Assembly: GCF_013315695.1 (NCBI RefSeq)
Contig: NZ_CP054353.1
From: Escherichia coli
GTDB taxonomy: Bacteria > Pseudomonadota > Gammaproteobacteria > Enterobacterales > Enterobacteriaceae
Direction: 5' to 3' (one strand)
Length of the DNA: 64,000 nt
This document shows, in pieces, positions 6,001 through 12,000 of the stretch; position 1 is the first letter of the stretch; each line of letters begins with the position of its first letter. Position numbers: made by a program.

Positions 6001-9000
6001 TTGGTGCGTGCCGCCTCTATAGCGGCTTTAGAAGCAGAAACCTGGGCTTTTGCTGATTCCAGCGCAGCTCGGGCGCTCTCAGCGGCGGCGCGGTCGTCAT
6101 CCAGCTGTTGCGCAGAAATTGCCCCCCGTTGGGCCAGTGAGCGGGAACGCGTATGACGTTTTGCTACGGAGTCCAGTTCTGCCTGGCGTTGATTAACCAG
6201 CGACTGTGCGGCACGAGTTTCGCTTTGGCGTTGCTCCAGCAAAGCCTGCGCGGCGGCAACGGCACTTTGTGCTTCTTTGATTTGCGCGATGGCTTCCATT
6301 CGCTGTTCCTGCAACACGCGAGTATCCATCTTCGCCAGCACTTCACCTTCTCGAACAAACTGGCCTTCTTTCACCAGAATGGTGTCGATACGCCCGGCAA
6401 TTTTGCTGGCGATATCCACTTCCGTCGCTTCAATGCGCCCATTACTGACAGCAAAGCCTTCCGGCACACCTGCCGGGCGCAACAGCCACCACGCCACGAT
6501 AGCGGCCACCGCCAGTAACCCGACAACCCACCACGCCAGATGGCGCTTACTCTTATCCATAATCGACCCGCCATAATCCCTGTAAGCAAACGACGCGTGT
6601 TACAACTGCCGCCGAACGACGTTCAGCGGATTCTTCCATCCGGGATAAGAAGGAAACGGCAAATACGACCAGCGCGCAGAGCATTGAGCGCCAACGTGGA
6701 AGGCTTAGTGAAAACGGGTAGTAATGTTGTCATCATCAGCATTCCTGGCCGTAAATGAAACACGCATACTCATAAGTGTGATCTATAAAACTGGCTGACA
6801 AAACGGTATCCATCCTGTTGGATAGCGTTTCACGCCTGTTCAGTTGCAGGAACAGAGCATTCCTTATTACGTTTTATCAACAGTCTCAACCAGATAGTAA
6901 CATTAATATTCATGTTGTCTATGGTTCAGAGCTGTAACATTGTGCGCCTTCTAATCAAAGGCATAAGTCCATTTTTGTTTTTTTCATGCTGGTAAGACTT
7001 CCAGGGAGTGGTTATCTCAGGCCCCGCACCAGGGTTAATTTGGCAATTATGCATGCTGAACATTCTTCCAGCATGTTTACTGTCACGGGCGTTAAGACCT
7101 AAAACTGTCCCCGTTTCACCTATGCGTTCTCTCCCACCATTTCCGTTATGTGCAACAACTTGATTTATACCTAACATTTGTGAGCATGCTAATAGTGCTT
7201 CAAGTTTAGGTCTGTAATCTGTCGAAACAGAAAAATAACGATTAAAGGATCGACAAGAGATAGCCCGGCTAGTTTTAAACTTTTTACCATTAATTATAGT
7301 ATGATGCTTTTTATTAATAATTGCCGCTAATTCGACCGGATCGAGAGCATTGGTCATTTCATCAATAGAGACTGTTATCGGTCCTATAATGTAACGTTTT
7401 CGCTGATCATCAAAAGTTATCCCATGATGATTTGCCATTATTTTGTATTTGGGGTCATAGAAACATACAGGATAATCTTTTATCCCGTCGTAGGTATCCT
7501 CATCAAGTGGTTTCATACGCGTGAAGTTCTGCATATAGTTACCATTGCAATTCGTTTCATGATTACCAGCTAATACATGAAAATTTTCATTGATACTCAT
7601 TATGCGTTTTAACAAATCGATGATAAATTGATCGCCACAGATATTACTAAATCGATCGCCGGTTTGGTCCCCCAGAAACGTACATGGCGTCACTGCGCCT
7701 TTATTAATAGCTAAATATGGCTGAATACTTTCTAAAACAACATCTCTTCTGTTCAGAATACTGATTATTGTATTAACATTAATGTCTAGTTCCTCATTAA
7801 TGTTTTCCCTTAATAAAACATTGAGAACTTCATCTTCTATATTAAGCAACTGGCTAAGAAAATTTACTCCTTCAGCCATAATTCCCAAATGTCCCGTTGC
7901 GAAAAGCGCGTACAAAACTGCACCGACTGAGCCATCGGTATCACCAAAATAGGTTGGTCTGGTACTTGTGGGATCAACGGGTGAACAATTGGAGAAATAG
8001 ATTCTGTCAGCGAACTGGGGTTTTATAATTGTTTCGAATTTAATATCAGATACATTATATTGCGATATTTTCCAGTCCCAGATGGGTTTGTACGACTCAG
8101 TAACTGCAACATCATTAGCATTATCATTTACTGTCATATTATTAAGTAAATAAACAATGCTGCACCAATTAATATCGGTATCATCAAGAGGGCAACCGTA
8201 ATTTTTACTATTAATTGTCACAATAAACTGATAACTATTATTCCTACGTAGAATATGGGCACGCATGCCCGATAGCATACTATATTTTTCTGAATGATTC
8301 GTTTCTATGGTAAATGAAATTTTGTCATCTTGAAAAGATTGTTGGAAACGTTCTATTTGCCAATCATCAATTTTTTCCACAACTTCACCGAGCATTGTCC
8401 TGGCAATACTTGATATATCATCACCTATACCATTTGCAATATACCCAAACAGTTCTTTAGTGAAGTTAGTAACATGCTCTTGCACCATATCATTTGTTGC
8501 GATAGTCGTTATACTGTCGTTAGTACCTGCCACAGTTCCAAGTTTCATCTTTTACCTCATATAATTCACCGCAAGGAATACATAGTTATCATTTAATCTT
8601 ATGACATACACCTCATGTTCGACGGGAAAATAATTATATTTTGCACAAATCATTCAGCCTTAAAGCATAATATGAAATTTCTTATCTCATAGTAGAGAAA
8701 GTCCCTAAAGATTGTAGAGGCGTCATCAGTACATGCCTCTACAATCGATTAAGAAAAACTATGAAATACTGGCAGGATTAAAAAGACATACCACAGCACT
8801 CATGGAGTTTTAATGTGGTTGAAAACAACTAAGCCCTGGGACACCTTTTTTATCACCACGTTCGTTAGGTGCTATCTTCCAGGAATTTAGCCCCATGATA
8901 TAATTATCAATTTTTTGATGCTGATCTACCCCTAATCCATAATGGCCATATTTCTGTTTACTTTTTTTGAGCGTCTGTCCACATTTGAAGATATCTTCAG

Positions 9001-12000
9001 GTTTTGGTCTGAAAGCAGTAGTGTTATTAAAATAATTGTCATATACAGGTGTGGATGCTATAGCATTGCTTCTAATTAGATGGATAAGACGATCATCCAT
9101 GTGTTGTTTATGTTTTTTATTAAATATATTTGCTAATTCCTCAGGATCAATTGGGTCTTTCATCTGATTAAATGGAACCTGCAAAGCACCTAGACAATAA
9201 CATTCATTTTCTTCATTTCTTATTATTCCGTGATGACTGGTTAAAACTTTCGTTTCTGAGTCATAATTACAAACATCGAGCGTTTTAATTAAGTTATATG
9301 TATCACCGGAAGAGAGTTTATGATTTGCTAGTCGGGCACTATAGTTACCATTAAAATTGATTTCATGATTTCCAGCCAGAACGACGACATTTTTATTTAT
9401 ACGACTATCTTTATTACCCTCCATATTTCGCATAGAATTTAGCAAAGTAAGGATATATTTATCACCAAAAATAGTACTAAATCTATCGCCTGTATGATCC
9501 CCAAGGAAGATACAAGGGGTAATCGCATCGCCTTTTAAAAAAACATGTTGATGCAACTCATTCAAAAACATGTCTCTCTTATCTAATAAAGTGAAGAGTT
9601 TTTTCAATTTTTTATTTTCATATGCGAATGAAGCCATGTCTTCGTGTTTTAATAAATCACATAATAAACTCCACCCCTTTTCCCTGATGCCTATATGCCC
9701 TGAAACGAGCAATGCATAAAGTACAGCGCCTACTCTTCCATCTGTATCGCCAAAATAAGCCGTGTTGGCATTTTGTGGGTTAATCACACCACACTGTTTA
9801 TAAAAGTCTATTTTTGAAAAAACAGATTCAACATAGCTATCAAACTTTTCCTTAGTAAACGTCTCTTTAGAGACAGCCCAACGCCAGTCAGGTTTGAAAT
9901 TACCACTAAGAAGAGTAAAGAAATTTCTCTCTATGATAGAAAACCCATCAACTTTATAAATTATGTCTGATTTATCCCCGGAGAAATTAATAAAATAATA
10001 ACCGTCCTTACGCTCAATCGTAACGGTAATGGGAGACGATAATTTTATCACATGGTTATTGTCTGGTATAATTGTAAAGATAAACGTGTCAGTAGTATTA
10101 TCGGCAAAACTATTATATTCTTTAATATCTATAGATGGCTCACTATTGTAAAACCATATTTTTTCTATCTGAGAACTATGTTCAGTTACGTTCCAGCAGC
10201 CATGTTGCAGAAAATAGATGATATGCAGGCCAAAATCGTTATCTATTTGCAAATGTTTATCCAGCTTATCAATTTCAACTATCTTTGAACGATGTTTTTT
10301 ATCAACCTTGCCATGGTGTTGATGACTGTTAACTTTATCTGAATGCTTATCTTGATGGTTTGAAGAGATGTGCTTAAATATATTGTGAAATACTTTCATA
10401 AATAACCCGTGATATTTTTGACTTGTTAGTAACAAAATAAATGACACATGTCTGAAAGACATATTTACGATGATACAAAGCAATAATACTTATATGTTCG
10501 ATGATTTTAAGCACCGATACCATCCGGTCTTTTACCAAATAATGAAAAAGAATCCCTCCCTGGAAGATAATTGTAAAAAACAACAGAATAAGAATTAATC
10601 TTAGGATAAATATTTATTTACCATGGCCTTTTGAACGCTGAAAAGTAGCGCTCTGCAAAGTAAATCCCGCTATAGTTATGCTATGCATTTGTCTTTAATG
10701 ATATCTCGTCATTATATTAACAGGCTGAAATTATCATTAATGCACATTTCAATATTAGCAGGGATACCTGAGGAGTTTAAAGTGAACATATATATCGGGT
10801 GGCTTTTCAAATTAATCCCTTTAATTATGGGCTTAATTTGTATCGCGTTAGGTGGCTTTGTGCTGGAAAGTTCTGGGCAAAGTGAGTATTTCGTCGCGGG
10901 TCATGTGCTGATTTCTCTGGCAGCCATATGCCTGGCATTATTCACTACCGCATTTATTATCATTTCGCAGCTCACGCGCGGCGTTAATACGTTTTACAAT
11001 ACATTGTTCCCCATTATTGGCTATGCGGGGTCAATTATCACCATGATATGGGGTTGGGCACTGTTAGCAGGCAATGATGTGATGGCAGACGAGTTTGTTG
11101 CCGGCCATGTTATTTTTGGCGTTGGTATGATTGCCGCCTGTGTATCGACAGTGGCAGCGTCATCCGGTCACTTTCTGCTCATTCCCAAAAACGCAGCAGG
11201 GAGCAAGAGCGATGGAACACCGGTACAGGCTTATTCGTCATTAATCGGTAATTGCCTCATTGCCGTTCCCGTTTTACTCACCCTGCTCGGTTTCATTTGG
11301 TCTATTACGCTGTTACGTAGTGCCGACATAACTCCGCATTATGTCGCCGGTCACGTATTGCTTGGGTTAACCGCAATCTGTGCCTGTCTAATTGGCCTTG
11401 TTGCCACAATCGTCCATCAAACACGTAATACGTTCTCATCCAAAGAACACTGGCTGTGGTGTTATTGGGTTATTATTCTCGGCTCAATCACGGTGCTGCA
11501 GGGCATATACGTCTTAGTCAGCTCCGATGCAAGCGTCCGACTGGCTCCCGGCATTATTCTCATTTGCCTCGGAATGATCTGTTACAGCATATTCTCAAAA
11601 GTCTGGCTACTGGCACTGGTCTGGAGACGTACCTGTTCGTTAGCCAACAGAATACCGATGATTCCCGTCTTCACCTGCCTGTTTTGCCTTTTCCTGGCAT
11701 CGTTTCTTGCGGAAATGGCGCAGACCGACATAGGGTATTTTATTCCTTCGCGGGTTCTGGTCGGTTTGGGAGCGGTATGCTTTACGTTGTTCTCAATCGT
11801 TTCAATATTAGAAGCGGGTTCTGCTAAAAAATAATTGCAACGTACCGGATAAACCAGCGTTGATTATTTGCGTAACGCTGGTTTTTCTTAGGTATCATGA
11901 AATAACGCAGCATTAATGCATAGTGGTTAAGTATAAATAAACAGCAAAGTTGCTGATTTTTTCAACCTGTTCATATTTTATAAAGATCTGGCCACTGGGG

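What the first reader, a model, noticed from the sequence alone, without database searches (positions are those of the whole stretch)
8810..10483. His/Lys-rich low-complexity N-terminal stretch in the yhiL ORF and ambiguous start site
The first 75 or so residues of the computed ORF include HQDKHSDKVNSHQHHGKVDKKHRSK, a histidine/lysine-rich tract that could be a metal-binding or nucleic-acid-binding tail, or non-coding sequence captured by an over-long ORF. Which holds decides whether the protein has an extra N-terminal module absent from yhiJ.
Basis: seen in the sequence. Interest (0 to 1): 0.35.

Follow-up and report, generated by a model that had tools for sequence, protein, structure and literature searches.

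The report
Disordered His/Lys-rich tail of YhiL
The histidine/lysine-rich stretch is a real, translated and probably floppy N-terminal segment of the already annotated E. coli protein YhiL, whereas the 28 codons in front of it in the computed ORF are untranslated leader; this is an ordinary result.

Summary
The window is the E. coli pitA-yhiN-yhiM-yhiL-yhiJ region. The tract HQDKHSDKVNSHQHHGKVDKKHRSK is present as described, at window 10283-10357 on the minus strand. It has 6 His and 6 Lys in 25 residues, a modest but real enrichment (shuffle P about 0.01).

The 557-codon ORF is over-long. The start is the ATG at 10399, giving the 529-aa RefSeq protein WP_000862333.1. That ATG is invariant in 8 alleles. 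Four alleles, one of them intact, have a TAA seven codons upstream and no other start. One-base indels scramble the upstream frame. The E. albertii homologue's ORF opens exactly at this ATG.

The tract is residues 15-39, immediately before Pfam DUF6860. No ATG, GTG or TTG lies between the start and that domain, so the tract is translated. It is as conserved between E. coli and E. albertii (56%) as the rest of the N-terminal region. However, only 2 of its 6 His survive in E. albertii, and its dN/dS within E. coli is about 1. It is strongly hydrophilic and modelled without structure.

YhiL residues 1-95 have no counterpart in YhiJ.

Most likely this is a disordered basic leader. Metal or nucleic-acid binding is untested and weakly disfavoured. 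The feature is already annotated and of low interest.

The parts
8810..10399 (-). yhiL coding sequence as best supported: 529 aa plus stop, starting MKVFHNIFKH. Identical to RefSeq WP_000862333.1.
   Evidence: PGAP annotation in the 100%-identical strain AF3, translation, and an exact match in the protein collection.
10400..10483 (-). The first 28 codons of the computed ORF (TTG 10483, ATG 10462, GTG 10447, TTG 10435). This is 5' leader, not coding.
   Evidence: A 1-nt indel at window 10420 and others in the A-run shift this frame between alleles. Four of 8 alleles have a TAA 7 codons upstream of the ATG and no in-frame start. These candidates have no SD-like pairing (duplex energy -1.0 kcal/mol or weaker).
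10397..10399 (-). ATG start codon of yhiL.
   Evidence: Invariant in 8 E. coli alleles and in E. albertii. The E. albertii ORF begins exactly here.
10405..10409 (-). Weak Shine-Dalgarno-like CGGGT (CAGGT in 5 of the 7 other alleles), with 5 nt between it and the ATG.
   Evidence: Duplex with the 16S 3' end is -3.2 kcal/mol, the best of the upstream candidates. The AGG/GGG core is conserved. This start region is the least structured of the three tested.
10358..10396 (-). Residues 2-14 (KVFHNIFKHISSN): a short, variable segment with an amphipathic pattern, before the tract.
   Evidence: Hydrophobic moment is about 2.0-2.1 in three allele types. AF2 models a helix at residues 2-10 in one model only, at pLDDT about 30. 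It is the most variable part of the N-terminus among the alleles.
10283..10357 (-). The His/Lys-rich tract, residues 15-39 of the 529-aa protein. It is translated and predicted to be disordered.
   Evidence: position and composition; mean hydropathy 0.22 against a boundary of 0.47; pLDDT about 27, no secondary structure; only an in-frame 6-nt indel relative to E. albertii.
9908..10282 (-). Pfam DUF6860 domain (residues 40-164). It begins directly after the tract.
   Evidence: PF21661, E = 8.8e-82, full profile 1-125 of 125. AF2 models the first strand at residues 39-43, with domain pLDDT 50-85.
8822..9775 (-). Pfam DUF4049 domain (residues 209-526), with metallophosphoesterase-type motifs GDTDG, GDHTGDR and GNHE.
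   Evidence: PF13258, E = 1.2e-155. Motifs read from the translation and from the alignment invariants.
10549..10577 (-). Candidate sigma-70 promoter of yhiL (TTTACA-17-GATTCT). It matches the K-12 'constitutive promoter' TTTACA-17-GATTAT with one mismatch.
   Evidence: The motif comes from PMC3946193 and was located in the window. It is a prediction only. It lies upstream of every candidate start, so it does not discriminate between them.

Best explanation
Translation of yhiL starts at the ATG at window 10399 (minus strand) and gives a 529-aa protein. The 28 codons upstream in the computed ORF are 5' leader.

The His/Lys-rich tract is residues 15-39 of that protein. It is a translated, strongly hydrophilic, net-basic and intrinsically disordered segment. 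It links a short variable N-terminal stretch (residues 1-14) to the folded DUF6860 domain (residues 40-164). DUF6860 is followed by the DUF4049 domain, which carries metallophosphoesterase-type, WipA-like motifs.

The tract belongs to a YhiL-specific N-terminal part (residues 1-95) that was found only in Escherichia and has no detectable counterpart in the paralogue YhiJ.

Shown: the start site (by comparative evidence), the coding status of the tract, and its position relative to the domains.

Inferred: the disorder, and the view that the tract acts as a flexible basic leader or spacer under weak constraint rather than as a dedicated His-based metal site.
For: Start site:
- The ATG is invariant in 8 alleles.
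- Four of 8 alleles, including the intact WP2-S18 allele, have a TAA 7 codons upstream and no alternative in-frame start.
- One-base indels upstream change the frame between close alleles.
- The E. albertii ORF opens exactly at MKVF.
- It is the only upstream candidate with SD-like pairing (-3.2 against -1.0 kcal/mol or weaker) and has the least structured start region.
- PGAP makes the same choice.

The tract is coding:
- No in-frame ATG, GTG or TTG lies between codon 29 and the first residue of DUF6860, and the full profile (1-125) is matched.
- The TTG at ORF codon 78 is TCG in all 7 other alleles.
- The only indel relative to E. albertii is 6 nt and in frame.
- Identity to E. albertii is 56% in the tract, against 48-57% in the neighbouring segments.

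Disorder:
- Mean hydropathy is 0.22 against a charge-hydropathy boundary of 0.47.
- Both AF2 models give pLDDT about 27 and no secondary structure for residues 11-38, while the domain starts at residue 39.

Weak constraint:
- dN/dS is 0.95 over six alleles and 1.28 over the four intact alleles, against 0.57-0.62 gene-wide.
- Only 2 of the 6 His are kept in E. albertii.

YhiL-specific part:
- BLASTP and hhalign homology to YhiJ begins at YhiL residue 96-146.
- A search of 1.84 billion representative proteins with residues 1-205 found only YhiL, the E. albertii protein and fragments, apart from three marginal matches to unrelated repeat proteins.
Against: - There is no experimental evidence for the start site or for expression. 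I found no TSS, Ribo-seq or proteomic data for yhiL.
- In this lineage ATG 10462 and TTG 10483 are in frame, so occasional use cannot be excluded.
- The AF2 models are poor overall (mean pLDDT 46 and 51), so low pLDDT is not specific to the tract.
- The dN/dS values for the tract rest on about 10 substitution events.
- All six His are conserved in the four intact E. coli alleles sampled.
- The E. albertii comparator is a yhiL-yhiJ fusion that lacks catalytic motifs and may be decaying, so its loss of His is weak evidence against a function in E. coli.
Confidence: 0.85

Rival explanations
1. The tract is non-coding sequence swept into an over-long ORF. The real protein would start downstream of it, at the DUF6860 domain.
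For: The ORF is demonstrably over-long at its 5' end. The tract shows no purifying selection within E. coli.
Against: No ATG, GTG or TTG exists in frame between 10399 and the first residue of DUF6860. The only nearby TTG (10252) lies inside the domain and is TCG in the 7 other alleles. The only indel relative to E. albertii is in frame, and identity begins at Met1. All PGAP annotations include the tract.
Confidence: 0.03
2. In this lineage translation starts further upstream, at ATG 10462 or TTG 10483. This would add a hydrophobic 21-28-residue leader (MSFRHVSFILLLTSQKYHGLF) in front of MKVF.
For: Both codons are in frame in the window allele and in allele 2009C. Most metagenome gene callers choose them: 70 of the 143 predicted proteins carry the 21-residue extension and 12 the 28-residue one.
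Against: There is no SD-like pairing (+0.6 and -1.0 kcal/mol) and the start regions are more structured. The extension is out of frame or stopped in 4 of 8 alleles, lacks the ATG in K-12 and GF4-3, and is absent in E. albertii. Its sequence varies by frameshifts among very close alleles.
Confidence: 0.05
3. The tract is a functional metal-binding tail that captures Ni, Zn, Mn or Fe for the metallophosphoesterase-type DUF4049 domain. Alternatively it is a basic tail that binds nucleic acid or membrane.
For: His is enriched (6-7 of 25; P about 0.01) and includes an HQHH cluster. The net charge is about +4. The C-terminal domain carries metal-dependent phosphoesterase motifs. All six His are retained in the intact E. 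coli alleles sampled.
Against: Four of the 6 His are replaced by D, Y, N or K in E. albertii, while the flanking KVN and VDKK motifs stay. dN/dS is about 1. By my own knowledge, the His density (24%, one HH pair) is far below that of known storage or chaperone tails. The paralogue YhiJ has the same catalytic motifs and no such tract. The gene is a pseudogene in half of the sampled strains.
Confidence: 0.1

Closest known systems
YhiJ/YhiL family (Pfam DUF4049, PF13258, with N-terminal DUF6860, PF21661); RefSeq WP_000862333.1
   Same: The 529-aa product is identical to the RefSeq protein. Both Pfam domains match far above their thresholds.
   Different: Nothing differs. Only the computed ORF differs, being 28 codons longer than the annotated CDS.
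E. coli YhiJ, the adjacent paralogue (window 6926-8548, minus strand)
   Same: It is homologous from YhiL residue ~96 (YhiJ ~66) to the end. BLASTP gives 34% identity over 369 residues, and hhalign gives 93% probability for YhiL 96-215 against YhiJ 66-200. It has the same GDTDG, GDxTGDR and GNHE motifs.
   Different: YhiJ residues 1-65 are unrelated to YhiL 1-95, are about 30 residues shorter, and have no His/Lys tract and no DUF6860 hit. YhiJ has 2.6% His against 5.3% in YhiL.
Legionella WipA/WipB-type metallophosphoesterase fold protein phosphatases (PDB 5N6X; PMC5454105)
   Same: It shares GNHE and a GD-x3-DR motif with the spacing of WipA D180/D184/R185. It also has a long helical insert between the first and second motifs. 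YhiJ gives weak hits to WipA_Phos, T4SS_Wip and Metallophos.
   Different: All these hits are below the curated cut-offs, and YhiL itself gives none. The first motif is D-T-D rather than D-x-H. No significant sequence or structure match to WipA was obtained. This concerns the C-terminal domain, not the tract.
His-rich metal-binding tails of metallochaperones such as HypB, SlyD, UreE and Hpn (from my own knowledge)
   Same: A terminal, hydrophilic, His-enriched and probably disordered segment attached to a protein that is likely to use metal ions.
   Different: The His density is much lower, the His residues are not conserved in the nearest homologue outside E. coli, and no metal binding has been demonstrated.

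Membership tests
YhiJ/YhiL family (Pfam DUF4049, PF13258) | Match to PF13258 above the gathering score. | tested here: met
   518.1 bits against a cut-off of 25, E = 1.2e-155, profile positions 1-333 of 333.
DUF6860 (PF21661) | Match to PF21661 above the gathering score, and its N-terminal boundary relative to the tract. | tested here: met
   271.6 bits against a cut-off of 27, profile 1-125 of 125, at ORF residues 68-192 (protein residues 40-164). The domain therefore starts at the residue after the tract. The same holds in E. albertii, at residues 43-166.
Over-long ORF / captured 5' leader | The upstream part loses its frame or its start codons in close relatives, while the downstream part keeps frame. 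| tested here: met
   This is met for ORF codons 1-28 only. It is not met for the tract, codons 43-67.
Calcineurin-like metallophosphoesterases / WipA-like phosphatases | Pfam Metallophos or WipA_Phos match above the curated cut-off. | tested here: not met
   YhiL gives no hit at E of 0.1 or better. YhiJ scores 17.4 bits (cut-off 21.5) and 13.7 bits (cut-off 27). NCBIfam T4SS_Wip scores 16 bits against a cut-off of 300.
Calcineurin-like metallophosphoesterases / WipA-like phosphatases | Signature motifs DxH, GDxxDR and GNHE. | tested here: inconclusive
   GNHE is present (residues 343-346). GDHTGDR is present (300-306) with WipA-like spacing. The first motif is GDTDG (217-221), with Asp where WipA has the essential His32.
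Calcineurin-like metallophosphoesterases / WipA-like phosphatases | The two-sheet sandwich fold of the metallophosphoesterases. | tested here: inconclusive
   The AF2 model of this domain has pLDDT 23-45. Foldseek against the PDB gave no hit at E of 0.001 or better; WipA 5n6x appeared at E = 1.1, which is not evidence.
His-rich metal-binding tails | Conservation of the His residues across homologues. | tested here: not met
   Six of 6 His are kept in the intact E. coli alleles, but only 2 of 6 (H15, H19) in E. albertii. H36Y occurs in one E. coli lineage.
His-rich metal-binding tails | Measured metal binding. | not testable with these tools
   This needs purified protein or peptide, with ITC or ICP-MS.
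N-terminal export signals (Sec, Tat, lipoprotein) | A hydrophobic h-region of about 10 or more residues after a basic n-region, a twin-arginine motif, or a lipobox. | tested here: not met
   Reading residues 1-40 shows no hydrophobic run, no RR motif and no lipobox. Mean hydropathy is below -1.9 across the windows covering residues 10-39. Type III or type IV signals cannot be tested here.

The most novel reading that the evidence does not exclude
The Escherichia-restricted N-terminal part of YhiL (a short amphipathic stretch, the His/Lys-rich disordered tract and the first half of DUF6860) is a functional targeting or metal-loading leader. It would direct or activate a WipA-like protein phosphatase in E. 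coli, for example by capturing divalent metal for the active site or by docking on an anionic surface or an export machine such as the neighbouring YhiI-RbbA-YhhJ transporter.
Probability: 0.06. Interest if true: 0.45.

Novelty: already known. Interest (0 to 1): 0.1.

Why it matters
The practical value is in annotation. It shows which start codon is right for yhiL. It also shows that many automatic gene calls in public databases, with 12-41 extra residues, carry a spurious hydrophobic N-terminal extension. Such an extension could be misread as a signal peptide or a membrane anchor.

Biologically the tract is a minor compositional feature of an uncharacterised gene. The gene is H-NS-silenced (literature on K-12) and often pseudogenised, and the N-terminal part carrying the tract was found only in Escherichia. 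The tract would matter only if YhiL proved to be an active WipA-like phosphatase whose N-terminal leader controls metal loading or localisation.

Tried and rejected
- Two scans of GTDB species genomes for orthologues gave nothing usable. The alignment query had 233 pattern hits, none confirmed. The single-protein query found only a 311-bp contaminant contig in a Bradyrhizobium assembly.
- The search for homologous proteins with full-length YhiL listed only proteins at least 97% identical. With the E. albertii N-terminus it returned nothing.
- tblastn against plasmids found only three mislabelled E. coli chromosomes.
- PDB searches by sequence (phmmer and profile) gave no meaningful hit. The best was E = 0.07, to a 'adenylate cyclase-like protein'.
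- PADLOC gave no hit, and NCBIfam gave none for YhiL.
- Rfam gave no hit, and TRF found no tandem repeats. The short direct repeats found look like chance.
- The promoter scan was not enriched (16 sites against 13.1 expected). The literature promoter lies upstream of all candidate starts, so it cannot discriminate between them.
- No paper mentions DUF4049 or DUF6860, and one broad literature search was uninformative.
- I considered a nucleotide-level element under the tract because it looked unusually conserved. Sliding-window diversity is 0.045-0.055 over most of the tract, within the gene's range of 0.003-0.25, so I rejected this.
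Full report
**What is there.** The window is E. coli chromosome. A megablast of window 8700-10700 found the segment in 4198 of 5426 complete E. coli genomes, always chromosomal, at 80-100% identity. In the 100%-identical strain AF3 the gene order is pitA, yhiN, yhiM, then the finding's gene (yhiL, 'DUF4049 domain-containing protein'), then yhiJ, yhiY, yhiI and rbbA. The quoted peptide is ORF residues 43-67, at window 10283-10357.

**Is the tract more than chance?** It has 6 His, 6 Lys and 1 Arg in 25 residues.
- Shuffling the protein gives P = 0.014 for the best His window, 0.008 for His+Lys and 0.85 for Lys alone.
- Among the 52 ORFs of at least 150 aa in the window it is the clear maximum, with 7 His (next best 5) and 12 His+Lys (next best 8).
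- YhiL as a whole is His-rich (5.3%, against 2.6% in YhiJ), so the tract is the extreme of a general tendency.
- It is not a DNA tandem repeat, and nothing from Rfam lies there.

**The start site.** PGAP places the start at the ATG at window 10399 (MKVFHNIFKH...). This gives 529 aa, WP_000862333.1, and PGAP uses the same codon in other intact alleles. I tested that choice by comparison.
- In an alignment of 8 alleles spanning 89-100% identity, the ATG is invariant.
- Upstream of it there are 1-nt indels. One is at window 10420. Others lie in the adjacent A-run, as seen in public protein calls whose extension switches to another reading frame.
- Walking upstream in frame, 4 of 8 alleles, including the intact WP2-S18 allele, meet a TAA after 6 codons with no start codon in between. 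K-12 and GF4-3 keep only a TTG at -12. Only the window allele and 2009C have the ATG at -21 and the TTG at -28.
- The only full-length relative outside E. coli is an E. albertii protein (P0122, WP_161525008.1). Its ORF opens exactly at the homologous MKVF ATG. Its upstream DNA differs by 8-nt and 1-nt indels, while the coding part differs by a single in-frame 6-nt indel.
- The ATG at 10399 is preceded by CGGGT (CAGGT in 5 of the 7 other alleles) with a 5-nt spacer. Its duplex with the anti-SD is -3.2 kcal/mol, against +0.6 for ATG 10462 and -1.0 for TTG 10483. It also has the least structured start region.

I conclude that ORF codons 1-28 are 5' leader. Of 143 predicted proteins, 24 start at MKVF. 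The rest carry extensions of 12-41 residues, most often the 21-residue MSFRHVSFILLLTSQKYHGLF.

**Is the tract translated?** Pfam places DUF6860 at ORF residues 68-192 with the full profile matched (1-125 of 125, E = 8.8e-82), and DUF4049 at 237-554. The tract therefore ends one residue before a recognised domain.
- Between the ATG at codon 29 and codon 68 there is no in-frame ATG, GTG or TTG.
- The next TTG (codon 78, window 10252) lies inside the domain and is TCG in all seven other alleles.
- Any protein containing an intact DUF6860 must therefore include the tract.
Identity between E. coli YhiL and the E. albertii protein is 57% for residues 1-14, 56% for the tract, 48% for DUF6860 and 55% for residues 165-215.

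**How constrained is it?**
- Within E. coli the tract varies little, but what varies is mostly non-synonymous: 8 non-synonymous and 2 synonymous events.
- dN/dS is 0.95 over six alleles and 1.28 over the four intact ones. The whole gene gives 0.62 and 0.57. The counts are small.
- All six His are kept in the intact E. coli alleles. One pseudogene lineage has H36Y.
- In E. albertii the tract reads HEDKHSKSKKVNYDQYNENVDKKKIST. The HxDKHS, KVN and VDKK motifs stay, while four His become D, Y, N and K.
- Caveat: the E. albertii gene is a yhiL-yhiJ fusion. Its residues 1-258 resemble YhiL (55% identity) and residues 274-430 resemble YhiJ (61%). It lacks the GDxxxDR and GNHE motifs, so it may itself be decaying.
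- yhiL is a frameshifted or stop-containing pseudogene in 4 of the 8 sampled E. coli alleles, including a K-12 derivative.

**Physical character.**
- Residues 12-39 have mean normalised hydropathy 0.23 and net charge +0.14 per residue. That is far on the disordered side of the charge-hydropathy boundary (0.47). Residues 40-164 and 209-529 fall on the folded side.
- Two AlphaFold2 runs, one full-length and one of residues 1-215, both give pLDDT of about 27 for residues 1-37, with no secondary structure between residues 11 and 38. A first beta-strand appears at 39-43 and the DUF6860 region has pLDDT 50-85.
- The alignments were shallow (12 and 7 sequences) and the models are poor overall. This supports the hydropathy argument but does not prove disorder.
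- Structure searches with these models gave nothing significant.

**Relation to YhiJ.**
- BLASTP aligns YhiL 146-506 with YhiJ 131-487 at 34% identity.
- A profile-profile comparison extends the homology to YhiL 96-215 against YhiJ 66-200 (93% probability, E = 2.7e-7). The E. albertii protein bridges the same region.
- YhiL 1-95 and YhiJ 1-65 show no similarity. The YhiJ N-terminus matches no Pfam family.
- The YhiL-specific part is therefore larger than the tract. It comprises the variable residues 1-14, the tract, and the first half of DUF6860.
- A search of 1.84 billion representative proteins with YhiL 1-205 found only YhiL, the E. albertii protein and pseudogene fragments, plus three marginal matches to unrelated repeat proteins. 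No plasmid copies exist. The module was thus found only in Escherichia.

**Context.**
- The yhiJ-yhiL segment is 31-38% GC, against 50-59% in the flanks.
- In K-12 the yhiL-yhiM spacer and part of yhiL are described as H-NS-bound 'promoter islands' (PMC3661553). A predicted RpoD promoter TTTACA-17-GATTAT is listed for yhiL with an H-NS mark (PMC3946193).
- That motif maps to window 10577-10549 with one mismatch. It lies upstream of all candidate starts, so it does not help to choose between them.
- I found no paper on DUF4049 or DUF6860, and no experimental start-site or expression data for yhiL.

**What the protein resembles.** DUF4049 carries GDTDG (217-221), GDHTGDR (300-306) and GNHE (343-346). 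The latter two correspond to the metallophosphoesterase signatures described for Legionella WipA (D180, D184/R185, N212/H213; PMC5454105). The first motif has Asp where WipA has the essential His32. Only YhiJ gives sub-threshold hits to Metallophos, WipA_Phos and T4SS_Wip. This is a resemblance, not an established membership, and it concerns the C-terminal domain rather than the tract.

**Verdict.** The first 28 codons are captured leader. The His/Lys tract is a genuine, probably disordered N-terminal segment of the annotated protein.
- I favour a passive role for the tract, as a flexible basic leader or spacer.
- My confidence is 0.85 for the combined claim on the start site, the coding status and the disorder.
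- A dedicated metal- or nucleic-acid-binding role is not excluded (about 0.1). It is not supported by His conservation or by selection.
- All of this matches the existing RefSeq and Pfam annotation, so novelty is nil and interest is low. The useful by-product is a clear statement of which public gene calls are too long.

Noticed in passing
L009 6001-7293 (E. albertii, GCA_009932295.1): The E. albertii homologue is a single yhiL'-'yhiJ fusion gene of 430 aa. Residues 1-258 resemble YhiL (55% identity) and residues 274-430 resemble YhiJ 384-540 (61%). The part carrying the GDxxxDR and GNHE motifs is deleted. It sits next to yhiY-yhiI-rbbA, with an omptin gene upstream instead of yhiM.
   Followed up: partly
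window 8810-10399, with loci L002, L005, L007 and L008: yhiL is annotated as frameshifted or stop-containing in 4 of the 8 sampled E. coli alleles, including a K-12 derivative. These alleles share a 1-nt indel at window-equivalent 9206. Gene-wide dN/dS is about 0.6 even among intact alleles, so the gene looks dispensable and decaying.
   Followed up: partly
window about 9950-9970 and about 8963-8970: Two 18-nt in-frame indels segregate among yhiL alleles. One is a tandem duplication that yields ...SDIIYKSDMIYKV....
   Followed up: no
window 8860-9120, compared with 9500-9800: Diversity along yhiL is strongly mosaic. Pairwise diversity reaches 0.25 near the 3' end and falls to 0.003-0.02 around the GDTDG motif region. 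N-terminal allele types (MKVFHNIF..., MKAIDNQI...) recombine with different downstream types.
   Followed up: no
window 10683-11834 (+): The mechanical ORF for yhiM (383 aa) is also over-long. PGAP starts yhiM at window 10782 (350 aa). This is the same kind of start ambiguity on the other side of the divergent spacer.
   Followed up: no
window about 6600-10800: The yhiJ-yhiL island is 31-38% GC, against 50-59% in the flanking genes. This fits horizontal acquisition and the H-NS binding and 'promoter islands' reported for K-12 (PMC3661553 and PMC3946193).
   Followed up: partly
window 8822-9775 (-) and yhiJ 6926-8548 (-): DUF4049 carries metallophosphoesterase-type motifs: GDTDG, GDHTGDR (with the D-x3-DR spacing of Legionella WipA) and GNHE. 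Asp replaces the catalytic His of the first motif. Only sub-threshold Pfam and NCBIfam hits to Metallophos, WipA_Phos and T4SS_Wip were found, and only in YhiJ.
   Followed up: partly
window 10283-10399 (-): Synonymous diversity in the first 39 codons is much lower than in the rest of the gene (pS 0.026 against about 0.12 among intact alleles), while non-synonymous diversity is not. This may reflect a constraint on the translation-initiation region or recombination history.
   Followed up: no
L012 (NZ_BQUV01000091.1, 311 bp): A 311-bp contig in a Bradyrhizobium sp. Ce-3 assembly encodes YhiL residues 285-387 at 95% identity. It is almost certainly E. coli contamination of that assembly.
   Followed up: no
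window 10045-10072 (+): The best sigma-70-like match in the region (TTATCA-16-TATAAT with an extended TG, 10 of 12) lies antisense inside yhiL. This fits the reported intragenic promoter island, but the scan as a whole was not enriched over shuffles.
   Followed up: no
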